Source of the DNA: Saccostrea cucullata
Lineage: Eukaryota
Length of the DNA: 64,000 bases
Assembly: GCF_032062105.1 (NCBI RefSeq)
Contig: NW_026936265.1
Location: 496,001 to 560,000 of the forward strand
Reading direction: 5' to 3'
In this document: one piece after another, positions 45,238 to 59,700 of the stretch
How positions within the stretch are numbered: the first letter of the stretch is position 1
Layout of the letters: each line of letters starts with the position of its first letter
Program-made: the position numbers and the translations under genes
Notes under the pieces: generated by a model
Databases searched by the model: none
Seen by the model: the letters and a program-made list of their open reading frames with translations, nothing else
What the model was told of the DNA's origin: nothing

Positions 45238-47115
45238 GGTCACACTAGGTATTACAATGGGGAAATTGGGTAAAGAACGGCATCACTAATGCTGCTCAGG
45301 GGGGGGGGGGGGGGGTCACACTAGGTATTACAATGGGGAAATTGGGTAAAGAACGGCATCAGTAATGTTGCTCAGGTGAGCGATGTGGCTCATGGGCCTC
45401 TTGTTATAAAAATTGCAATAGAATAAAAAAAAGTCCCTCATTTGGTTAGTAAAATTTGATTCGGATATGGTAGATTTTCTCCCAATGAGGGATAAAGGAC
45501 CATTTGGTAGGACTAAGGTTGTGCCCAACCTGTCTATTTACATACATGTACTGACTACACCAGATGTACTATTAATGTGTTTTATGATGTGACCGTTGGG
45601 GCGAGTGCAGTCCTTTATACTGCTTACAGTTGATCCGCCCCATTCAAACCAATCAAACGTCAAACCGCACGACACAGTCTAGACTGTGATGTCACATGAC
45701 ATTGGAATTTACGTAGACAGCCGAGAGTCTGGTTATATGAGACAACATGGAGTTCTTGTCTCAAGGATTACATATGTGAAGTATGAAAGCCTAGCCCTTA
45801 CTGTTCAAAAGTTATGGCCAAGGTTAAAGTATTTTAAAAGTAGGTAAAGCTCCAAGGTCAGGGTCAGAAGGTCAAAGTTGTTGGTATCCTATGAAAGATC
45901 TTGTAATAAGGATTACATATGTGAAGGATGAAAGCCCTAGCCCTTACCATTCAAAGGTTATGGCCAAGGTTAAAGTTTTTTAAAAGTAGGTCAAGGTTAA
46001 AAGGTCAAAGTTGTTGGTATCCAATGGAAGTTCTTGTCACAAAGAATACATATGTGAAGTATGAAAGTCCTAGCACCAACCATTCAAAAGTTATGGCCAA
46101 AGTATTAGTTTGAAATTTTGGTGTTAAAGTGGGTCAAACTCCAAGATCAAGGTCAAGAGGTCAAATTTGGTAAAGAAAGGTTTTGTCACAAGAAATGTAC
46201 CTGTGAAATATGAAAGCCATAGATCCACCCAGTCAAAAGTTATGGGTAAGGTTAAAGTTTTTATGGACAAACAGACAGATGGGCAAAAACTATGTATCCC
46301 CGTATTCATTTACGGGGGCATAAGAAGAAGAAAAAAAAGTCAAAAAATTATGTGAAAACTCATTTTTGCACTAAGGACTATTTTAAAAGCAATCCAAATC
46401 AAATATCAAATACATATTTCCATCAATTTGGTACCTGTATACCATTGTTCGTGCAAACAAATGATAAAATAGCCAAATCAAGATATTCTCACTAGCTTAA
46501 TCAAGCTATATAGCTAAATCAAGGTATTGTGCCAGACATGTTGAGTTAAACAAGTAAATAAAATGACACTTTCAATCTGAATTTAGGAATTGGATGAGAC
46601 TTTGGTAGAGCGATTGATTGGATTAACAGAGATGTTTCCAGAGTCTGTCAGAAATGTGGTTTGTAAAGCAGGATCTCTCTCATGGAAAGCCACACAATGG
46701 GGATTTTCCTTCAGCAAGAGTGCATTATGGGTAGCAATGTCTGCTGGGACAATACTGGTTTTACCAGTTATGTTTGAAAATGAAAGAGCGCAAATGCTAG
46801 ATCAACAAAAACAACAGGAAAAACAGGTATCTCACCAAGTTTTTTAAATAATAATTTTTTAAAACTGTAGCGTGTTTAGTACTTACATTTTTTCTTTTTT
46901 TTTTTACAAAGATAACATAAGTTCTTAGATTAGGTTGTTTTTTGGGTTACATGTATCAATATACTTTAGAAAATGTGTCATAACTTCTGTTTCAGATTTT
47001 ACTGGGACCTCACTCTGCAATGTCTGGGACAGGGATGTACAATCAAGGAATGATGCCCCCTGGCATGGTCCCCCCACCCCCAACTATGGCCCCTCCTACT
47101 CCATCCTCATCTTAA
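41460..47115 (+). CDS. TOMM22: Mitochondrial import receptor subunit TOM22, ~152 aa; exons 41460-41558, 46587-46826, 46996-47115
   Basis: Acidic N-terminus EDDDDDEELDETLVERLIGLTEMFPE, TM segment SALWVAMSAGTILVLPVMFENER, then QQKQQEKQILLGP. Introns are GT-AG, phase 0. The start codon is inferred. Confidence 0.93.
42226..42560 (+). mobile_element. Short HINE with (gacg)n microsatellite and terminal hairpin
   Basis: aacaagaactagaggtactgtgagc..gacggacggacggacggacagacg..cccgcttttcaagcggg. Confidence 0.6.
43428..44546. mobile_element. hAT-type MITE, 8-bp TSD
   Basis: TIR tagggctgggacgata / tatcgtcccagcccta, TSD ggggtagg at 43420-43427 and 44547-44554, and atcg-rich subterminal repeats. Confidence 0.9.
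43516..44219. mobile_element. MITE, CAG..CTG ends, 6-bp TSD (hAT6-like)
   Basis: TIR caggggttcaaaatt / aattttgaacccctg, with atcgat duplicated at 43510-43515 and 44220-44225. Confidence 0.85.
45745..46325 (+). mobile_element. HINE remnant with ~130-145 bp tandem units
   Basis: Units cttgtcacaaggaatacatatgtgaagtatgaaagccctag..aaaagttatggccaaggttaaagt, a gacagaca microsatellite, and terminal hairpin ccccgta..tacgggg. Confidence 0.7.
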
Positions 47116-48131: not shown

Positions 48132-51100
48132 TCATGTCTTCTTGGATTTGGATGACATTGCCTTCAATAAATTCCCCACTTTACTGCTACTCTTAGATTT
48201 TTTCTTTTCTGGTTTTTGTGTTGTTGAAGCATTTGATGCATCTAAAACAAAAATTATTTAATTATTTAAAAATGTTTTCAGCAAAATTTTAAAAGCAACT
48301 ATTAATTAAACAAGAGGTCCAGATTTGAATCCCATGTGGGATGTGGAGACCAGTCCTTCTGATGAGACAGTATAAACCGAAGTCCCGTGTCGCAATAGGT
48401 GCTAGCACAAAAATGATCCCTCACTGCTCAATGGCCCTAAGTGCTGAGTTAGAGTATAGGACAAAATTTGCAGCTCCGACGACAAATGGTGGCATCTTCA
48501 TATAGGAGAATAACTCTCTAGAGGGACATTAAACAACAAACAAACAAACAAGCTTACCTTTGTCATCTTTAACTGCCAGAAGTGTCCTCAAACCCTCTAT
48601 TTCTTTTTTGAGTTTTCTGTATTCCTAAAATAAAAAAAATAATGTTATAAGATTGTGTTCTTTCTTTATATGACTTCACTTTTAACTTTCTCACTGGTTT
48701 TCCTTTATCAAGGTCATCCCACAATATGATTTCACATATACTTGAAAAGGGAGGTCAACATTACCGCTACATTGGGGTAATTTTCAACTCATTAATACCG
48801 CTACATTTATTCAAAATTTCGGGTGATGATTACCACTACATTTTATCAATAAGACTATACTGCCGACTACAAGTCACTACCACTACACATACAATCAACC
48901 AGCATGCAACTGAATATAAGTTTGACTCATTATGTTTTATTATGAGATTTTCAGACATCAGTTCGTCTAGCAAATGGCCTTTAAAGCTCTACCAATCGTG
49001 TAGAGACTGAGTGATTATCCATGAACAAGGCACCGTTTTCAAACTTTCTAAAATGTTTTATTGAATAAAATTAAAAGAGAAAATTGCTCAAATTCAAGAT
49101 GATCAGGGGAAGCAGGTCTTGTAAGTTATGCTATAATTTGTGCAATAATATGTACATATACATGCTTAGGCCGCCGCCTGACGGAATAGGTAATGTAGCG
49201 GTAATGTTACTTTTAAATGTAGCGGTAATGTTACCTTTAAATGTAGTGGTAATGTAACCTTTTTTGTAGTGGTAATGAGTATATAGCAATTTTAAAAATG
49301 TAGCAGTATATCAATGATATGCACCCCTTGCACAGGAATACATATAATCTGATGTTGGATTTTAAACTCTGATACACAGAGGTGATATACAAGTATTTTG
49401 AATTTACTAAATTATGAATACAATTCTGAAACTAATCAAATAACAGTTTTCATCTTCTTGCACTCTTAACCTTGAAAGTCTAAATAAAACAAAATATATT
49501 TTGAGACCAAGCCCCAAAGGCAATCAATCAAAAAGGCACAACATACCTCTGTACATTTTGGTAAGTTATCAAACTCTCCACTCTCTTCCTTCTTCTCACG
49601 TTCCTCGCGCTGAATGGCCTGTTCTGCTAAAAGCTTTTTCTCCTCCAATGGAATGTAATACCCTGCTTTCTCAAATATCTTTCTTAATTGTTTATTATAC
49701 CCCTGCAATGAAAGAAAACAATACTCCAGCAAAAAACACAATTAAAATTCTTTATTTTTCACAATTAAAAAGTGAGACAAAGAACTTTATTCGGTAATAA
49801 CCAATATTTGCCCCCCAAATCAAACTTTGATTGAGATATATTTAATTAAGTTCTTAAACAGGGGAGTATATGCTGACTTCAAAGCACTGAATATTTTCAT
49901 AAGTAATGATGCCATATGTACGTAATGACGTCACAAACATGACGTAAAATTCAGTGTTTAGGAATTTTACAGAAAAATGTACATATTTCGTCGATATTTT
50001 GAGTTCACCGAGCGCATGTGTGTTCAGGATCAATATTTTGATATAATGTGTAGAATGATAATATCAATGAAATATATCAATATTGTTCCTGAACAAACTT
50101 GCGCTCTATAAATTTTAAAGCTAAATTTGTTGAAATTTTGTCCATTTTGTCCTCTTTCTGAAAAAGGATATAAAATCGAACTAGCTTGTGACGTCACAAA
50201 AACAAAAATTGTGAATACACTGCTTTGACGCTATAATATTTTCTGTTAATTTATATTTCTCATACAATTTATTGAATTCAGCACATTTCAGGAAGTTTTC
50301 AAAATTGGACTTTTGTGGGGGCAAATATATGCAATATACCGCATATAGTTCTTTTGTCAAGCTTACCAAAATGATTTATTTAATACTTGCATTATTTTTT
50401 CATTGAAATTTCAACTATGCACTCTGATCCATTGCCAAAGGATTGTCTTACACACCTTTCTAGGCTCTGATTAGAGCAATCATGAAGGAGACTTACTTTT
50501 GGGGTAATTTCCTCCCTATAGAGTTCCCCCTCTAACTGATCCCAGGCCTGCTGAAGCTCCTCACTCAGCGTGGGGTAAACCAACATAGAGTCCCTGTGAC
50601 AGACATAAGGGGAGGTAAAGCTCATGTGGTAGTTACAGGTAGAGGGCTCTGTCACGTTCACAATATCATGCTTGTCTCCACAGCTGAATATTACCTGACA
50701 AACAGAGCTCAGAATCTTAATAAAATCCAAATAAAATTGTCAAGAGCTAGGAATATACCTGTATCATATAACAAATAGTACAACAAATAATACTTTAAAT
50801 TTTCCTTTTCAAAATGAATTCTGCAAAAACTGTGTCTTTACCTTGACAGTTCTGTGGAAATCTCCACATTTTTCTCCTTCTCTCATATTCATAGCAATAA
50901 ATGTGTTATTTTCTATTTCCCATTCTTGCCATACACTGAAAGTTTAACAAACAAAATAGAAATATTAAGGAAATCAATATACAAATATTTTCAGGGATGT
51001 TTTTAAGTTTTGTGTAAGTTATTGGTGTGCTTGTCATGTAGGCATATTTCATAAGTTTATTTCTGTAATTATTATAACAATATACCCGAGTACACCACTG

Positions 51101-54100
51101 AATGGGTTCCACCTGTAGGACTGTTCATGTTGTGTCACATTGAAAAAGGGACAGAACTCATATCTGTATCTGAAATATAAATATTTATATAGCATATTCA
51201 TCTATTTTCCTTTTATCATCCTGTTTAATACTAAACTCAATATAAGGTGTTCTATATGTTCTATGTAAAGAATATATACCAGTAACTTTAATAACAAATT
51301 TGTTTTAAATATAATTTAGGAAAATTAATTATTTCAGGACATGTACATTTAAAATTAGTCAGATTAAAGATTGGAGGAAAAAATGGAAAAACAAAATTAC
51401 TAGTCTTGCATACAAATTAAGCTGTTTATAGTAGTAGGTGCATGTATATAATTAAACTCAATATCAAACTCACTCATTCATCTCTTTAGAGAAGCATCTT
51501 CCATACAGTCTCTTTAGATGTACAGGGCCTGTAAAATTACTGGGCTTTATCCTCATCTTCAGTTTCTTGTCATCGGTTGTGTGACTGGCAAAATTATAAC
51601 TGTTTAGCCTGTAAAAACATAGGTAATCAGAGATTACAGAGCTCACCTCAACGAATGTTGTCTTTAAGTAAGGCAAATTAAGTCACACAATTAACCAACA
51701 AAAAGTGTACATCCAAAAATGCAAAATTTATGCAATTTTAATACTTTTGAATAGACCTATATAAAAACTTAAATCTAGTTCTTCATCATGAAAATGTAAT
51801 TAAAATCCAGCATCTGAAGCAAGATTGAGAGTTTTCATCCCTTGATGCATCATTTGTGCAACTTTGGTTTATATAAGCCTTATAGTTTCTTGGTGATAGA
51901 CCTGCACCCATAACTTTTACGAGGTCTATTATCTGGAAAATGTATGTCGAATTCAGCATCTGAAGCAAGTCCATTAGTGTGCATCCTAAGATGTATCATC
52001 CATGCAAGTTTGTTCAACATAGAGCTCAAAGTTACTTGGAAATGAAACCTGTATAAAAAACTAACCTTTTCACTTATCCGGAAAATGTAGGTCAGATTCA
52101 GCTTCTGAAGCCAGCCTAGTAGAATGCAACCTTAGATGTACCATCCATGCAAGTTTGGTCATTATAGGGCTCAAAGTTACTTGGAAATGAATCCTGCACC
52201 ATAAACTTTAACCTGTTTACTCGTCCAGAAAATGTAGGTCAGATTCAGCATCCGAAGCAAGTCTGGTAGTATGCATCCTAAGATGTACCATCCATGCAAG
52301 TTTAGTCATTATAGGGTTCATAGTACCTTCAGTGGAAATGAAACCTGCACCAAAAATTTTAACCTGTTCACTCAACCGGAAAATGTAGGTCAGATTCAGC
52401 ATCCGAAGCAAGTCTTGTAATATGCATCCTAAGATGTACCATCCATGCAAGTTTGGTCATTATATGTCTCATAGTAACTTGGAAATGAAACCTGCACCAA
52501 AAACTTTAACCTGTTCACTCACCAGAAAATGTAGGTCACATTCAGCATCCGAAGCAAGACTGGTAGTATGCATCCTAAGATGTACCATCCATGCAAGTTT
52601 GGTCATTATATTGTCTCATAGAAACTTGGAAATGAAACCTGCACCAAAAACTTTAACCTGTTCACTCAACCGGAAAATGTAGGTATTCAGCATTCGAAGC
52701 AAGTCTGGTAGAATGCATCCTAAGATGTACCATCCATGCAAGTTTGGTCATTATAGGGATCATAGTATCTTCAAAATGAAACCTGCACCAAAAACTTTAA
52801 CCTGTTCACTCAACCGGAAAATGTAGGTCAGATTCAGCATCCGAAGCAAGTCTGGTAGTATGCATCCTAAGATGTACCATCCATGTAAGTTTGGTCAACA
52901 TAGGGCTTATAGTTACTCGGAAATGAGACCTACACCAAAAACTGCACCAAAAATGTTAACCTGCACCAAAAACATTAACCTGGTCATTCCTTTGCTGAAA
53001 TTGCAGCATCTGAAACTTTGACTGGTACAAGGAAACACACTAGAAACATCTTCCATGCATGTCTAATCAACATAGGACATAGAAGTACTTGAAAAGAAAA
53101 CTGCTCCAAAAAACTTAACCTTAACCCGGGACGCCGATGCCGACGCCGAGGGTATCACATAAGCTCCCCCCAACTTCGTTGAGGTGAGCTAAAAAGTGGT
53201 AACATCAGGAAAAGTTTATATAAAAATACAGTTTAGAGACTAACACACTAACCATACCTCTCACAAGAAATATAAGAAAAAAATTAAATCATGTTCAAAA
53301 TATTGACTATATAGCTATGGTGTTCAATACTGTCTCATATTAAGGCATTCGGATCAAATTAATTGCCTGAGAGTGCAGGCCTGTAGGAAGCAACAATGGC
53401 AAAACATAAATCTCCCAACTGGGAGCCTGTAATTCAATTTTAACAGAGTAGGAGAAAAATGTGACAGATCAGACTGGGTTTCTAACCCAGGTCCCTAAAT
53501 GTTCAGTCAGGTAGTCTATAAACTAAGCTAATCTGGCAACATCTGCTTACGAGTCGCCGGTAAAACTCAGTTTGCGACCGTTAAATCAGCATTAACGGTC
53601 GCAAATACCAAATAAGATAGTTATTCCCTAAATTAAGAGAATGCACGACGGCGCAGCTTGTATCCAGATAACTGTGTTTAAAAGGCAAATACTTTATAAA
53701 TTGTTTGTGATTTATAAGAAAAAAGGTAAAATGATCAGGTATACTGATTTTATAGCTGTGAGTTTTTATTTACTGAAGACAACAAGCCGCAACCTTATGT
53801 AAGCCAAGATTTCCTCTGACAACATCAGAGAATGCAAATATAAGTAATAAACAACGATTATTCAGTGAACATGGCATTATGAATAGCAATAGCTCTGCTG
53901 GCATATTTTCCATGATGCACTAGCGAGCATCATGGAATATGCCAGCAGAGCAATTGCTATTCATAATGCCATGTTCACTGAATAACGTTGTTTATTTCTT
54001 AAATAATTGCAGGGATGTTTGCAAACCAATTTTCATAACATGCAAACACTCGTTACTTTATTTGTTTGCACACACCAATGACAGCATGTATGAGAGTACT

Positions 54101-55977
54101 CAGAGTACTGGACAGGTACATTTTTCATACAATAATAATCCAATGCTTAAATTAATATTTAAAACAAGATGTGTTTGTGAAACACTGATGCCCCCGTATG
54201 GCAGCTTATGGCGACATTGAATTTTCTCGAAAGAAAAGCACATCAAACTCCAAATGTCAAGGTCAGAAGTGTTGGTACCCAATTGAAGGATTGTTACAAG
54301 AGATACACCTATGAAATATGAAAGCCTTAGTTTTAACTATGTTTTTAAATATGAGTCTAACTCTAAGGATAAAAATATTTATACCCACTGAAAGGTCTTG
54401 TGACACAATGAATATACATGTGACAGTCTATGCGAAAGTCACCGGACCGTCTGTTTTTACTGGTAAAATTTAGGTCGGGTCGGTAAAAAATTTCAGTATA
54501 CAGGACCAGATGTCCGATAAAAAAATAAGGCCAAATAAATCTAAATTAAGAGGTACACATGGTCCAATTCCCCACAAATATCCTTTATTTGACCAATTTA
54601 GCAGTAATACCTGATTAATTTTTATGTATTACAACCCTGTCATGATCGTTTTTATATCTAATTCGAATTTCCTCTGTCAGGGGTTAAGAGATCCATAGAT
54701 AGCTCATACGTAGATTTGGTTGGGAAAATATTTAGATAGCTTTGTATAATTGGGTTGGGAAGTTATTTTCAAATGATCACTGAACTTGAGTAACCATAAT
54801 GAGTTGTTTCAGGAAAAATAAATATGAATTGAAAGTGCATATTAAATTTAAGAAAATCTTTGATACAGTGTATGTTGTATACATGCAAGTCAAATATGAA
54901 GAAAAAAATGCATGCAATATTGCATAAATTGAGAACTTTTACAAAGGAAAATTATAAATAGTTAACTTGTCCATTTCACTCTGAATTTATTCAAGGATAA
55001 ATTTCAAAATGAAAATTAACCCAATCCCACCCACCCTCTCAATTTCAGTATCATAATGATGTATGGATTTAAAGGAAAAAAGTCGGTCTGGTAAGAAATT
55101 GCTTGGTCTGGTAAAAATTTTATTTTTACCAGACATTTTGTCCTGTAAATATTTTAAACTTTCGCGTAGACTGATGTGAAGTATAAAAGCCCTTGGTATC
55201 CAACTTCTGACTTCAAAAGTTATGGCCAAGGTTAAAGTATATTTTGTAAAAGTAGGTCAAACTCCAAGGTCATGGTCAAGAAGTCAAATTTGGTGGTACC
55301 CAAAGAAAAGTCTTGTCACAAGGAATACACCTGTGAATATGAAAGCCATAGCCCCATCCACTCAAAAGTTATGGGCAAGATTATGTTTTTGCAGACAAAC
55401 AGACAGACAGATGGACAGACAGGGCAAAAACTGAACTTTGTTTACGGGATCATAAAAATAAATTGTTATCGCCATTTGTTTACCTCTTATTGACATGCAT
55501 GTTTTAAAAGTAACAATTAATCAGAGAACATACCCGTAACTTGAAGGCTCCTCCACAATTTTCATGCTAACCATTTCTGAAACTATTATGCAACAATAGT
55601 CAGACAGTAACAAATCATTAACATATCCTGAAATATGTTTTCTGCTAAATTCTTATCAAGGTAAACAGAGCAGTTTAAAGGAATTTTCAGGAATATATCA
55701 CTTCTGAATAAGTTACGTGTGATTCGCCAATATTTAAATATAGGTTATTAAAAAATACGATGACTTCTTAGTTCTTACGATTACAAAAGCACTTTGATTG
55801 ATAAATTTAAACGGAGGAAATTCTAGTTAAAACGTAACCGCGTTCAAAAGACTATATTGTAGAAAAGCATTCATATATACCCGCAGTTTTAAAAATCAGC
55901 AAAAGAAAGAACGGTAGAATTAATATGCATTGACAAACAGCACATATATCATGCATGTGATTGCTTCGTCGAGGCAT
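48132..55977 (-). CDS. GNPTG: N-acetylglucosamine-1-phosphotransferase subunit gamma, ~327 aa, 9 coding exons
   Basis: Exons (high to low): 55881-55977, 55534-55576, 51474-51608, 51086-51169, 50842-50935, 50497-50694, 49547-49702, 48558-48624, 48132-48241; the sum is 984 nt. Peptides [85 protein letters not shown] and IFEKAGY match the GNPTG MRH domain and C-terminus. Exon 1 (signal peptide [15 protein letters not shown]) and the exact ATG are inferred. Confidence 0.92.
48314..48551 (+). mobile_element. 5'-truncated copy of the tRNA-derived SINE in the last GNPTG intron
   Basis: tttgaatccc..gtggagaccagtccttctgatgagacagtataaaccgaagtcccgtgtcg..aatggccctaagtgc..(caaa)n tail. Confidence 0.8.
48750..49326. 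mobile_element. Probable MITE with inverted subterminal cattaccgctacatt repeats
   Basis: cattaccgctacatt-like motifs at 48760-48890 and their reverse complements aatgtagcggtaatg at 49190-49310. The termini are uncertain. Confidence 0.5.
51617..53195 (+). mobile_element. HINE with ~141-bp tandem array (about 8 units, 51780-52940)
   Basis: Unit ggaaaatgtaggtcagattcagcatccgaagcaagtctggtagtatgcatcctaagatgtaccatccatgcaagtttggtc..ggaaatgaaacctgcaccaaaaactttaacctg. End has (gacgcc)n and the agctc..cttcgttgaggtgagctaaaa hairpin. Confidence 0.85.
53441..53540 (-). mobile_element. Degraded solo copy of the tRNA-containing repeat seen at 47400
   Basis: Reverse complement gccagattagcttagtttatagactacctgactgaacatttagggacctgggttagaaacccagtctgatc..catttttctcct..gttaa. 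Confidence 0.5.
53841..54001. repeat. ~160-bp near-perfect palindrome (fold-back element)
   Basis: aataaacaacg.ttattcagtgaacatggcattatgaatagcaat.gctctgctggcata..ttccatgatgc-loop-gcatcatggaatatgccagcagagc.attgctattcataatgccatgttcactgaataacgttgtttatt. Confidence 0.9.
54161..55458 (+). mobile_element. HINE (same unit family as 45745-46325) interrupted by a MITE
   Basis: aaaacaagatgtgtttgtgaaacac start, caaggtca..gttatggccaaggttaaagt units, and (gaca)n. Confidence 0.7.
54424..55173. mobile_element. MITE, CAG..CTG ends, 6-bp TSD (hAT6-like)
   Basis: TIR cagtctatgcgaaagt / actttcgcgtagactg, with atgtga duplicated at 54418-54423 and 55174-55179. Confidence 0.85.
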
Positions 55978-56739
55978 CCTTCTTTAGGCTTCCAAGCAGA
56001 CATGCATATGCATTCATTGGCCAGTGAGTCACATGGTGTAGGGTGGTTTCGCGCCGATTACGTGTTCGCACTGAGTGGTATCGCGCCGAGTGGTTTCGCC
56101 CCATTTATCTACAGGTAAGGTATGGGTAGTATGTAGGCCTATACAGTATGGCTTCCCCCCGATTACCTGTTATTATATAACTTAGTAGCTTGTAATTAAT
56201 GAACCCAAAGCGTTAATGTCGTGTTATGTCGGATAATTATTCCATTTTGTATCTATTCTTATAGTGAGGCTATTTTAGCCAAATTATGACTATATTTGAA
56301 TAAATTTGATCGTCTAATTTGGAATAATTTAAGATGTTAAAATAAATATTTATTTCACAAATCTCGTTGACTTTTCAATGAAGGTTGTCATTGTTTTTCA
56401 TTTGATTTACAATTATATTAAATTATGTAGAACAAGGATTCTTCTGCATGAATTAAGACAATTATTCTTAAAGACTTCTCATTTCATTGCAATTACCTTT
56501 TCTTTATAATATCTTATTATATATAATAATCAAACGACTATCCGATGAGCGGTATCTTCAGTTATACAGTAGAAACCAATGGGGGCGAATCCACTCGGCG
56601 CGAACAAGTGATAGGAGCGAAACCACTCGGCGCGAACACGTAATCGGAGCGAAACCACCCGCATTCCGTCACATGACCTACAATATGGCTGCGCCCATTG
56701 GAAATGCTTGTTCTTATTGAAAACACGTACAATTGAAAA
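55978..56739. promoter_or_regulatory. Bidirectional GNPTG/TSR3 promoter region
   Basis: Lies between the divergent ATGs. Contains attgg (CCAAT, reverse) at ~56016 and ~56697, tgagtca 56025-56031, E-boxes gtcacatg 56028-56035 and gtcacatgac 56668-56677, and YY1-like aatatggctgc 56682-56692. Confidence 0.7.
56035..56666. mobile_element. MITE with 8-bp TSD inserted in the GNPTG/TSR3 promoter
   Basis: Inverted ends gggtggtttcgc.ccgattacgtgttcgc / gcgaacacgtaatcgg.gcgaaaccaccc, with TSD agtcacat (56027-56034) / cgtcacat (56667-56674). A solo left end recurs at 58264-58330. Confidence 0.85.
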
Positions 56740-59700
56740 ATGGGCAAAAGTAACAAACAAACTGGAGGAAAAAAGAAGTTTCACGATAGGAGACGACAGA
56801 GGGATGAGAAGTTTGATGTTGAAAAATGTAGCAGTAACATGGCAGCATGTCAAATTGGTGAGACAGCTCTAAATTTGTTGATGTTAATATAACATTTTTC
56901 CAGTCTAGAGTTAAAAGACGTCTGTACGGTGTAAATCCTTTTCTGACAATGATATGTTGCATATTTCAGATGTTAACCTGTAACATTTGCTTTTCCATCC
57001 TAGCTGCAGATCTGTAGCTCTCTTAAAAATATTTTGATAGACCGGAGAGCTACAGTGCCACCCATTGAAAAAACTGTATATTTAGGCCATAATAAATAAA
57101 TTGCTAGATTCTCATCCGACTTTTTTTAAAAATCGGGGCGGGCGGGCTGCTTTTATTTTATATTTTTTATTTTTTCAATTTTGCAGAATTTTTATTGACC
57201 TAGTCAGTCGGTGTAATTTTATCTATAAAACCAGAATAAAAGTCATAGTAAAGGTTCCATTAACTCTTACTATACATCATCACCAATCTTTTTCAACCAA
57301 TGACACTTGTTTAAAATATATATGCATGTATTACAGCAGTTACAATCTTTTCAGCTGTCAAAATCATGTTGACATTTGCGGGATTTAAAACGAAAGTAGA
57401 ATGGTATAGATGAATACCGATCCTGATCAGAATAAAGACGAAGAAAAACAGAAATAAAAAAATCGAGGCGGGGGTTTAAAATCGGGGCGGGCGGGGATAT
57501 ATCTAGGAATATTTTTATTATAGCCTTATTGCGCACAAAAAAGTGCGCTCGGTTCTTCATTAATTCTTTCAAATTCTTACCTCAATTGCAAATAAGGAAA
57601 GATTTCAAAAATTCCTTTATCTTCTAATAATCAAGTACTTCGTAGTTGACATCCGAACGAAGCATATTGGACCGTTTTTTGAAACCAAAATGGCAGTATT
57701 AAGCAAAATGTTCGATGATTACAATATCAGGGTCAGGAGGACTATTAACAACAATTATGAGAAAAGTTTGGTTGTGGAAACAGCGAAAGAATATGCTAAG
57801 GAACACACGGTTAGAAATATTTTGAGATTACATTTTTAAAAACATGGAGAAATAAATCGAGAACCGAGCGCACTTTTTTGTGCGCAATAAATATACAGTT
57901 TTTTCAATGGGTGGCACTCTAGCTCTCCTGTCTATCAATATATTTTTTTCAGAGAGCTACAGATCTGCAGCTATTTCCATCCATGAACTTGCAGGTTGAA
58001 ATCCTGCCTAGCCTATATGACTGATTGAGTGTGGGCTATATATGCACGTGTCTTCTGTTCAGGCAATAATTTATTAATCATCAAAGGAGGGAGGAATGAG
58101 GCTGTTAGACAGGGTTGATTCCTAGTGGCAGATAGCTTATAATCTGTAAAACATTGCCTGTGTAACACATGTAGTGCCTCATTATTGATTCAAATCCTTG
58201 TATATATGGTATTTTCTCAATTGTTTACATTTACTTCTATATTGACCACCAGTGAACTTGAACGGTAATGGGTGGGTTCGCCCCGATTACGTGTTCAAGC
58301 TGAATGTGTTTGCGCTGAGTGGTTTCGCCACTTGAACCTTAAAGTCCGCCCAGCAGGGGCAAATTAGGTATCAGAGGCCTGTTCTGAATAGACCCTTTTC
58401 CTATGACATATTTTGTCTAAGAGTTATTCCCCTTAGCCACCATATTGTAGGGCAACATTACATTCCCAGATCCCTTCATTATTCAACCAAGTTCAATTTG
58501 TTATACTGCCTATTGAGGTAAAGATAATGTTATTTTTCTTATGTATAAGTCATTCACTCTTTATATATAATTGTGGTATATAATTTTCTATTATATGAAA
58601 TTTTATACGTAATTGAATAAAAAGTGATTTACAGTATACGTTTGTTAAAGTCTCTATTAATTCATGATTATAAGATTGTGAATATTTTCCCCCATATATT
58701 TCTTGCATGCATGTTTAAAATTGGTTGCTCAAAGAGGTAAATTCACTACTTTGCCCTACAAGATGACGGCTAAGAGGAATAACTCCTAGGCAAAATATGT
58801 GGTTATATGTCACAGGAAAAGGGTCTATAGCATTAACATTTGCGAGCGCTTGTCAAAATTCTGTATAACTCCTAAAGAATTAATGTTAGCAAGCACTTGC
58901 TTTGTTGAACAGGCCTCAGATTTGGTGTTTTCAAGGGTTGATGTAAACATTATTGAAGAGAGGAATGCTCGCAGTAGTTGAACTAGCTGGTATATTTTCT
59001 GGTGGCTTAGTCGGTAGAGCATGTGGTAGACAGACATCTTGGCCATGACAGTTGACACCTCGGCCCTAACAGGACCTGGACGGCCCAAAATTATTGACAC
59101 GTTGGCCCATATAAAAGACACCTCGGCCCAAGCAAAATTTTTTGATAGAAAAAATTAATCTAGACTAGTGTCTGAATTTACATTATTGTGTAATTAGTTT
59201 GTCCTTCTGTCAAGTTTCTGATGATTAATTATTCTTCTTTCTAAAAATCAAATTAAGAAGGGGAGGGGACTATGATCATATCATTTTATTCACAGTATCT
59301 CTCTCTCTCTCATGGCAATGTGCAATGTAAATGCCAACAGAGACATATAAGAGAGGGACCCTCTCTTATAGATCTCTGATGCCAAGCAAATAGGCAATAC
59401 TTTATTTCATTAAAGTAGAAACATTCCTTTCCTATATGCATTTTTTCAGCATGAGAGATAGAAAGCGAGAATTTTAAAAAAATATCTGCATAAATTTTTT
59501 TAACGTATATTATGGTTGAAACCATTAATTAACTCATGACTGTTTTCATAAGAATCATTGGATACAATATTCAATGGGGCCTGCTTGTAATTAACCAAGG
59601 ACAATGCATCGGACACTCTAAAGAATATGCCGCGGATTTTGTTTGTTTAGCAATTAACTGATTGAACACCTTCATTATGTCTTCTCGTTCCCTAATTAAA

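What the first reader, a model, noticed from the sequence alone, without database searches (positions are those of the whole stretch)
56027..56700. A MITE landed in the central E-box of the bidirectional promoter, and its TSD duplicated the motif
Seen: the 632-bp element is flanked by agtcacat/cgtcacat and begins with G, so GTCACATG now exists on both sides, one copy next to each gene. The reconstructed empty site is cattggccagtgagtcacatgacctacaatatggctgcgcccattgg (CCAAT, AP-1/E-box, YY1-like, CCAAT). Established: GTCACGTGAC is the TFEB CLEAR motif and CATGTG-core boxes bind MiT/TFE proteins. Inference: the insertion was tolerated because it turned one shared site into two, potentially uncoupling the genes. 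The YY1-like motif now lies only on the TSR3 side.
Basis: partly seen in the sequence, partly recalled or inferred. Interest (0 to 1): 0.7.

Follow-up and report, generated by a model that had tools for sequence, protein, structure and literature searches.

The report
Transposon splits ancient shared oyster promoter
A 632-base jumping element sits in the tiny promoter shared by two back-to-back oyster genes (GNPTG and TSR3), at a control motif that a related oyster carries as a single copy; it left the full motif beside TSR3 and an 8-of-10 copy beside GNPTG, which likely lets both genes keep working, but any effect on their regulation is untested.

Summary
A 632-bp non-autonomous DNA transposon (56035-56666; 86 left and 101 right ends in the genome; 8-bp target duplications in 50 of 62 paired copies) lies between head-to-head GNPTG (-) and TSR3 (+) in a Saccostrea oyster. 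One contig of a relative shows the empty site with a single GTCACATGAC. Over-extended GNPTG gene models of Crassostrea/Magallana read through the same single motif, so it is conserved across oyster genera. A head-to-head GNPTG pair is reported in human, chicken and Fugu (partner = TSR3 by recalled alias). Corrections: the duplication is unequal. TSR3 keeps all 10 bases plus the YY1-like motif; GNPTG, the lysosomal-pathway gene, gets 8 of 10 (one MiT flanking base lost) plus AP-1. The motif is M-box-type, not the CLEAR palindrome. Both CCAAT boxes are missing in the relative. The doubling is mechanical (target copy plus the element's first G; seen at 3 of 55 insertions). 'Tolerated because duplicated' and 'uncoupled' are untested; whether the allele is fixed is unknown. 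A clean natural experiment, of a known kind.

The parts
48135..55977 (-). [quoted passage not shown]
   Evidence: PDB 7s69 E 9.4e-17; 94% to named Saccostrea and Ostrea GNPTG over one exon; exons located by tblastn; N-terminus agrees with P0001/P0028
55881..55977 (-). GNPTG coding exon 1 (signal-peptide-like), followed by a 298-bp GT-AG intron 55880-55583
   Evidence: translation; splice joint in X12 contig and 4 X21 reads
56004..56021 (.). 18-bp segment holding the left CCAAT box (ATTGG 56016-56020); replaced by one base in organism A
56025..56031 (.). AP-1 consensus TGAGTCA, overlapping the E-box; present at the empty site, now only on the GNPTG side
56027..56034 (.). left target-site copy agtcacat (same as the pre-insertion sequence in organism A)
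56028..56035 (.). GNPTG-side E-box GTCACATG, completed by the element's first G; 8 of 10 bases, one of two MiT flanking bases kept
56035..56666 (+). non-autonomous DNA transposon (MITE), imperfect inverted ends, no coding capacity
56041..56087 (+). left arm of the sub-terminal inverted repeat (47 nt, 89% to 56614-56660), GC- and CpG-rich, E2F-like TTTCGCGC at 56047
   Evidence: motif label recalled
56614..56660 (-). right arm of the sub-terminal inverted repeat
56667..56674 (.). right target-site copy cgtcacat (first base changed A to C, by comparison with organism A)
56668..56677 (.). TSR3-side full motif GTCACATGAC (TCATGTGA on the minus strand, both flanks)
   Evidence: conserved in organism A and, by peptide read-through, in Crassostrea/Magallana
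56681..56692 (+). YY1-like motif (label recalled); TSR3 read 5' ends of organism B fall at about 56679-56695
   Evidence: unchanged in organisms A and B
56697..56701 (.). right CCAAT box (ATTGG); broken in organism A, intact in organism B
56740..56857 (+). TSR3 coding exon 1; the gene continues from about 60344 to about 62300
   Evidence: spliced loose ends; Pfam Fer4_RLI and Ribo_biogen_C; PDB 5apg TSR3 E 2.2e-13

Best explanation
A non-coding cut-and-paste-type transposon sits in the conserved core of the compact head-to-head GNPTG-TSR3 promoter, and its 8-base target duplication plus its own first G left the full GTCACATGAC and the YY1-like motif with TSR3 and an 8-of-10 copy plus AP-1 with GNPTG, a likely weaker but likely still usable MiT/TFE-type site that would let the allele persist nearly neutrally. 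Shown: element, duplication, empty site in a relative, conservation of one motif across oyster genera, start codons 122 bp apart without the element and 762 bp with it. Inferred: the motif binds a MiT/TFE (or USF) dimer; GNPTG now starts in the ~55 bp left of the element using the residual site; its lysosomal induction is somewhat blunted while TSR3 is unchanged. The doubling is a mechanical by-product, and survival of the allele a passive filter rather than an adaptation.
For: Family ends and duplications. Empty allele in organism A. C. virginica model P0024 aligns to the antisense TSR3 start (56777-56739) and to 56697-56668 in the window's frame (sum E 3.4e-7); C. gigas P0013, C. angulata P0012 and 6 Logan proteins carry MGAAILWSCD, the minus-strand reading of the same core with a one-base shift. 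No change over 56668-56698 in A and 56676-56709 in B while flanks vary. 2 of 2 V-ATPase genes tested have a full 8-bp site 16 and 35 nt before the ATG against 16 of 2281 background 100-nt windows. MITF prefers 5'T and/or 3'A and ChIP peaks fall with departures from the 8-mer (PMC6672050, PMC7427332). Doubling of CAYRTG at 3 of 55 insertions, two without a GNPTG-like host context. The allele is not brand new: one duplication base changed, nearest copy 96.1% identical. Fugu keeps the pair with coding starts 1170 bp apart (PMC1487180 supplement).
Against: No binding, reporter or allele-specific expression data. The empty allele in a close relative rests on one contig. The in-vitro cost of losing one flank may be small (KD 0.9 to 2.6 nM across CLEAR, E- and M-box in PMC6355916; 11-fold for an M-box in PMC7427332), so 'weaker' may be negligible. 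PMC12314853 lists Nagpa, Gnptab, M6pr and Igf2r, not Gnptg, as TFEB-bound; none of my searches gave a passage naming GNPTG a CLEAR target. GTCACRTGAC is common in this genome (13,656 strand hits, 5.4 times the reversed control). In Magallana the GNPTG reading frame runs through the motif on spliced-looking contigs, so some GNPTG starts may have been cut off by the insertion, which would make it less neutral.
Confidence: 0.55

Rival explanations
1. One reading: both copies are fully functional, and the insertion turned one shared site into two separately evolving promoters, uncoupling GNPTG from TSR3.
For: The left copy still meets the published 5'T and/or 3'A rule (PMC6672050); it keeps AP-1; the window lineage has an 18-bp segment with a CCAAT consensus on the GNPTG side that organism A lacks; spliced contigs identical to the window's exons exist for both genes in organism C.
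Against: The copies are unequal; the V-ATPase sites have both flanks; gain or loss of the 18-bp segment cannot be polarised; the allele state of organism C is unknown; PMC1487180 lists no expression data and no shared function for the human pair, so coupling itself is not shown.
Confidence: 0.2
2. A mildly harmful, low-frequency insertion allele carried by the sequenced animal: GNPTG loses its main start region and is under-expressed from this haplotype.
For: The flanks are single-copy in the assembly, so no second haplotype was seen; no run holds half of the stretch's words; GNPTG read-through contigs in Magallana cover the motif; the element adds 8 upstream ATGs and a poly(A)-like signal on the GNPTG strand.
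Against: One changed duplication base and 4% distance to the nearest copy suggest persistence; no reads of the window's own species span either junction, for or against.
Confidence: 0.17
3. The element's GC-rich left end supplies a new promoter for GNPTG, and the duplicated E-box is incidental.
For: Left end 57% GC with 9 CpG in 76 bp and an E2F-like 8-mer.
Against: Starts inside the element would put up to five upstream ATGs (56003-56034) before the GNPTG start; no read evidence.
Confidence: 0.08

Closest known systems
Miniature inverted-repeat transposable elements with 8-9-bp target duplications (hAT, P, Merlin, Mutator, Zisupton classes; class features recalled)
   Same: Short, non-coding, inverted ends, fixed duplication length, tens of dispersed copies.
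   Different: The outer six bases of the two ends pair only at the terminal G/C; no transposase was found in the long copies examined (nested LINE-type and other inserts), so the superfamily is unassigned.
Maize Adh1-3F1124, where a Mutator insertion duplicated the TATA box (recalled; the paper was not held)
   Same: A target duplication copies a promoter element to both sides of a transposon and expression survives.
   Different: Here the element is an E-box in a two-gene promoter, the copy is partial, the allele is natural, and no expression change has been measured.
M-box (TCATGTGA) and CLEAR (TCACGTGA) sites of MiT/TFE factors (PMC6672050, PMC7427332, PMC6355916)
   Same: The empty site and the TSR3-side copy are a two-flank CATGTG site; same 8-mer class before two V-ATPase genes of this genome.
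   Different: Not the CLEAR palindrome; the GNPTG-side copy has one flank; binding untested, and USF is an equally plausible binder (recalled).
Vertebrate head-to-head pair GNPTG/MGC24381 (PMC1487180; MGC24381, GeneID 115939, = TSR3 is recalled)
   Same: Same orientation and similar spacing: coding starts 162 bp (human), 75 bp (chicken) apart, against 122 bp here without the element and about 103 bp in C. virginica.
   Different: Reported for vertebrates only; the vertebrate promoter sequence was not examined here.

Membership tests
MITE | short and without coding capacity | tested here: met
   632 bp; longest ATG-led frame 44 aa
MITE | terminal inverted repeats | tested here: met
   47-nt arms 89% complementary, starting 6 bp inside each end; terminal G/C pair
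MITE | target-site duplication of fixed length | tested here: met
   8 bp in 50 and 9 bp in 5 of 62 paired copies
MITE | many dispersed copies of similar size | tested here: met
   86 left and 101 right ends at up to 2 mismatches, control 0; 39 of 55 copies 560-740 bp
A named transposon superfamily (hAT, P, Merlin, Mutator, Zisupton) | autonomous partner with the superfamily's transposase and the same ends | tested here: inconclusive
   long copies hold RT/endonuclease or no long frame; a Transposase_21 gene in L106 lies beside a different 2-kb family
CLEAR element | palindromic GTCACGTGAC / TCACGTGA | tested here: not met
   central base is A in the window and in organism A
M-box | CATGTG core with 5'T and/or 3'A | tested here: met
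   TSR3-side copy has both flanks, GNPTG-side copy only the 3'A (rule from PMC6672050)
M-box / CLEAR | bound and activated by a MiT/TFE factor | not testable with these tools
   indirect only: V-ATPase promoters; bivalve Mitf activates a CATGTG-containing promoter in a reporter (PMC8173187)
Head-to-head (bidirectional) gene pair | divergent genes with starts within 1 kb | tested here: met
   start codons 762 bp apart, 122 without the element; 5' read ends within tens of bases of the motif in organism B
Head-to-head (bidirectional) gene pair | shared element drives both directions | not testable with these tools
   needs a dual reporter

The most novel reading that the evidence does not exclude
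GNPTG and TSR3 have shared one ~100-bp promoter since the common ancestor of molluscs and vertebrates, centred on a single MiT/TFE-type site that ties lysosomal-enzyme tagging to ribosome maturation; in this oyster lineage a transposon's own target duplication rescued the site for both genes and split the ancient unit into two independently evolving promoters, with the GNPTG half already gaining a new CCAAT box.
Probability: 0.17. Interest if true: 0.68.

Novelty: new member of a known kind. Interest (0 to 1): 0.45.

Why it matters
It is a ready-made natural experiment: the same tiny two-gene promoter exists with and without a 640-bp spacer in close oysters, with one transcription-factor site either shared or split unequally. 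That makes two standing questions testable at one locus: whether head-to-head pairs are kept for co-regulation or only because insertions usually destroy the shared core, and whether target duplications let transposons survive in promoters. It also extends the GNPTG-TSR3 pair from vertebrates to molluscs and gives a first sequence hint of a MiT/TFE-type lysosomal regulon in oysters. Without expression data it remains one insertion allele.

Tried and rejected
Empty haplotype in the own assembly: both flanks are single-copy. Organism B at the site: the X2 contig starts at 56675 with 18 loose letters that I recognise as a library adapter (recalled), so it says nothing on the allele; my first reading, that long unlaid parts lay left of the site, was a strand mistake. 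Autonomous partner: not found in about a dozen long copies and 20 regions behind unpaired right ends; four of those ends are remnants inside another 2-kb family. Targeting of E-boxes by the family: a second copy (L062) sits in a perfect GTCACGTGAC (expected 0.005-0.02 among 54), but 0 of 52 unpaired ends have CAYRTG at the target (some of these ends are not independent sites), CAYRTG 2 of 54 against 0.38 expected gives p 0.057, and promoter motifs are not enriched within 100 bp (YY1 3 of 51 vs 4.0%, CCAAT 5 of 51 vs 6.4%): not established. 'The left copy is dead': rejected, the published rule is T and/or A. Motif-compatible peptide GHMT in an abalone model (P0038): 1 of 93 non-oyster proteins, 0.11 expected by chance: not used. 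Papers asked for but not held. Earlier findings of the scan: nothing relevant.

Full report
1. Observation. The window shows an element at 56035-56666 (632 bp) flanked by agtcacat (56027-56034) and cgtcacat (56667-56674); it begins with G, so GTCACATG stands at 56028 and 56668. Its inverted arms (56041-56087 and 56614-56660) are 89% complementary over 47 nt; the outer six bases pair only at the terminal G/C. A search of the own genome gave 133 matches from 40 scored candidates; end patterns gave 62 and 60 exact hits and 86 and 101 hits at up to two mismatches, reversed controls 0. Of 62 copies with both ends in fetched loci, 42 have a perfect 8-bp duplication, 8 a 7/8 one, 5 a 9-bp one, 2 a 7-bp one and 5 none. 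The ends are the same in all and the flanks differ, so the 8-mers are host sequence. The family prefers T two bases before and A two bases after the target (32 and 27 of 55); this site has both. The longest ATG-led frame is 44 aa; the nearest copy is 96.1% identical. No transposase partner was found, so it is a MITE of unassigned superfamily.

2. The genes. The right gene is TSR3 (Pfam Fer4_RLI, Ribo_biogen_C; PDB 5apg; ATG 56740). The left gene, unnamed in the finding, is GNPTG, the gamma subunit of the enzyme that tags lysosomal hydrolases with mannose 6-phosphate (PDB 7s69, E 9.4e-17; 94% to named Saccostrea echinata and Ostrea edulis proteins over one exon; role from passages of PMC12645810 and PMC8167872). 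Its start at 55977 agrees with the closest named proteins, both Saccostrea; its first intron is seen as a splice joint. The start codons are 762 bp apart, 122 bp without the element and one target copy.

3. The empty site. Both flanks are single-copy in the assembly. I laid 6 different runs of the 24 listed (X1 and X2 twice). One contig of organism A (X1, 603 nt, depth 8.3; 14 substitutions and 10 gap letters over 56668-56968) runs from the right flank straight into the left flank: 16 of 16 letters match 55988-56003, one letter replaces 56004-56021, 6 of 6 match 56022-56027. So the pre-insertion site had one GTCACATGAC overlapped by AP-1, the left target copy is the ancestral one, and the right copy changed A to C later. 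Organism A carries the family at high depth, so the insertion here is lineage- or allele-specific. Both CCAAT boxes are missing in A (left segment absent, right T56699A). The motif and the YY1-like stretch are unchanged in A (56668-56698) and in B (56676-56709). B is uninformative at the junction.

4. Wider conservation, read from proteins. Several oyster GNPTG models are extended at the N-terminus and so record the promoter on the GNPTG strand. C. virginica P0024 has FFLPPACLLFLPI, matching the antisense of the TSR3 start (56777-56739), and WAQPYLKSCD, matching 56697-56668 in the same frame as the window (sum E 3.4e-7 in the 64-kb window), then goes on into GNPTG: head-to-head, one motif, no element, coding starts about 103 bp apart if MSVSV is the true start. 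C. gigas P0013, C. angulata P0012 and six Logan proteins (contigs 1840-2564 nt) carry MGAAILWSCD; the window's minus strand reads MGAAIL at 56698-56681 (E 0.038 on its own) and SCD one base out of frame. SCD is compatible with TCA TGT GAC but the codons themselves were not seen. 9 of the 10 motif-compatible N-termini among 108 proteins examined are these oysters. Because the Logan contigs hold the whole 352-357-aa frame in under 2.6 kb, they are probably transcripts, so RNA covers the motif in Magallana: some GNPTG starts lie beyond it, or the two 5' ends overlap (inference). PMC1487180 (abstract, one passage, supplement rows) lists GNPTG/MGC24381 as head-to-head in human, chicken and Fugu, coding starts 162, 75 and 1170 bp apart. 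That MGC24381 is TSR3 is recalled; a gene list in PMC8756499 (one passage) has GNPTG and TSR3 side by side on chromosome 16, and one search found no paper joining the aliases. Searches for GNPTG with TSR3, C16orf42, bidirectional or head-to-head listed nothing on molluscs.

5. Transcript ends. In raw oligo-dT reads of organism B (allele unknown; 30 reads laid) mean depth is 0 at 56663-56673, 0.6 at 56674-56684, 5.1 at 56685-56695 and 10 at 56696-56706: TSR3 5' ends sit on the YY1-like motif, just right of the E-box. GNPTG-side depth falls from 4.7 (55917-55967) to 1.4 (55968-56018). These are fragment ends, not caps, but they place both starts within tens of bases of the motif. Contigs of organism C, identical to the window over 47 and 121 exon bases, are spliced for both genes; whether those animals carry the element is unknown.

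6. What the motif is. It is TCATGTGA on the minus strand, an M-box-type site, not the CLEAR palindrome. MITF prefers 5'T and/or 3'A around the core (PMC6672050, passages); ChIP peak height falls with departures from the 8-mer and an M-box bound 11-fold less well than CLEAR (PMC7427332, passages and section 8), while another study found KD 0.9, 1.5 and 2.6 nM and a contact between I212 and the flanking T (PMC6355916, passages). A bivalve Mitf activates a CATGTG-containing promoter (PMC8173187, passages). In this genome both V-ATPase genes I tested have a full 8-mer before the ATG: subunit G TCACATGA 16 nt upstream, subunit D TCACGTGA 35 nt upstream of the ATG I read as the start, plus a one-flank site, against 16 of 2281 background windows. 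Against: the 10-mer is common genome-wide (6808 + 6848 strand hits), PMC12314853 (passages) names four mannose-6-phosphate pathway genes as TFEB-bound and not Gnptg, and USF binds the same GTCA-flanked sites (recalled).

7. What the insertion did. The TSR3 side keeps 10 of 10 bases, both flanks, the YY1-like motif and its start region. The GNPTG side has GTCACATG followed by element sequence: the core and one flank, plus AP-1 and an 18-bp CCAAT-bearing segment absent in organism A. This is a partition with a partial copy, and the weaker copy went to the gene one would expect to need it. The other orientation of the element would have restored the second flank as well, since its other end reads GAA inward. 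The doubling needs no selection: CAYRTG is regenerated at both junctions in 3 of 55 insertions (this one, L004, L062). Whether such doubling helped this allele survive is the open step. My best reading (0.55) is near-neutral persistence on a weaker residual site; rivals are true uncoupling (0.2), a mildly harmful rare allele (0.17) and a promoter supplied by the element's end (0.08).

8. A side lead that did not hold up. A second copy (L062) lies in a perfect GTCACGTGAC with a 9-bp duplication, next to an SGNH frame between retroelement-like sequences; chance expectation 0.005-0.02 among 54 copies (using my estimate of about 10,000 sites from the first 100 rows). But 0 of 52 unpaired ends show an E-box at the target and promoter motifs are not enriched around insertions. 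E-box targeting is not established.

9. Novelty. Transposons in promoters are common, and duplication of a promoter element by a target duplication has a precedent in maize Adh1 (recalled, paper not held). Searches on target duplication with MITE insertion and on bidirectional promoters with transposon insertion (listings and abstract starts only) showed no case like this in their titles or abstract starts, which is not proof of absence. The new parts are the mollusc extension of the GNPTG-TSR3 pair, the conserved MiT-type core and a documented empty allele. Verdict: real, well-anchored, a new member of a known kind; interest 0.45, higher if allele-specific or reporter data show rescue or uncoupling. 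Supplements of bioRxiv papers were not consulted; the main CLEAR gene lists (Sardiello 2009, Palmieri 2011) were not seen and bear on whether GNPTG is a TFEB target.

Noticed in passing
window 58264-58329: 66-bp one-ended relative of the element, flanked by an exact 8-bp repeat (58256-58263, 58330-58337), in TSR3 intron 1; perhaps an aborted-repair remnant.
   Followed up: partly
window about 57002-57970: A second, unrelated inverted-repeat element in TSR3 intron 1 with another element nested at about 57081-57527; very high read depth in organisms A and B.
   Followed up: no
L062:1492-2502 (G000:C10999): Copy of the same family inside a perfect GTCACGTGAC with a 9-bp duplication, beside an SGNH-hydrolase frame and between two retroelement-like regions with RT and tyrosine-recombinase matches.
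   Followed up: partly
L130:1471-1478 and L132:2451-2444: V-ATPase G and D genes carry full 8-bp MiT-type sites 16 and 35 nt before the ATG: hint of a lysosomal regulon in oysters.
   Followed up: partly
proteins P0012, P0013, P0024, P0002: Public oyster GNPTG models seem over-extended at the N-terminus, reading through the shared promoter (P0024 even through the antisense TSR3 start); likely annotation errors. The O. edulis model starts MWP at a position compatible with the ATG inside a one-flank E-box, unverified.
   Followed up: partly
window 56685-56720: The ATG inside the YY1-like motif opens an 11-codon upstream frame out of frame with TSR3; read ends suggest it lies at the very 5' end.
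   Followed up: no
window 46587-46847: Tom22 exon on the + strand, tail-to-tail with GNPTG.
   Followed up: no
L124:137-2113 (G000:C13844) and L125-L127: A separate 2-kb repeat family carries an internal 40-bp remnant of this element's right end; one copy sits next to a broken Transposase_21 gene in L106.
   Followed up: partly
L063 (G000:C17886:1011-1193): An 11-kb copy has its left end three times in tandem at 81-bp spacing and a nested LINE-type insert.
   Followed up: no
L097 (G000:C5900:117738-119838): A 2.1-kb copy with left-type ends on both sides.
   Followed up: no
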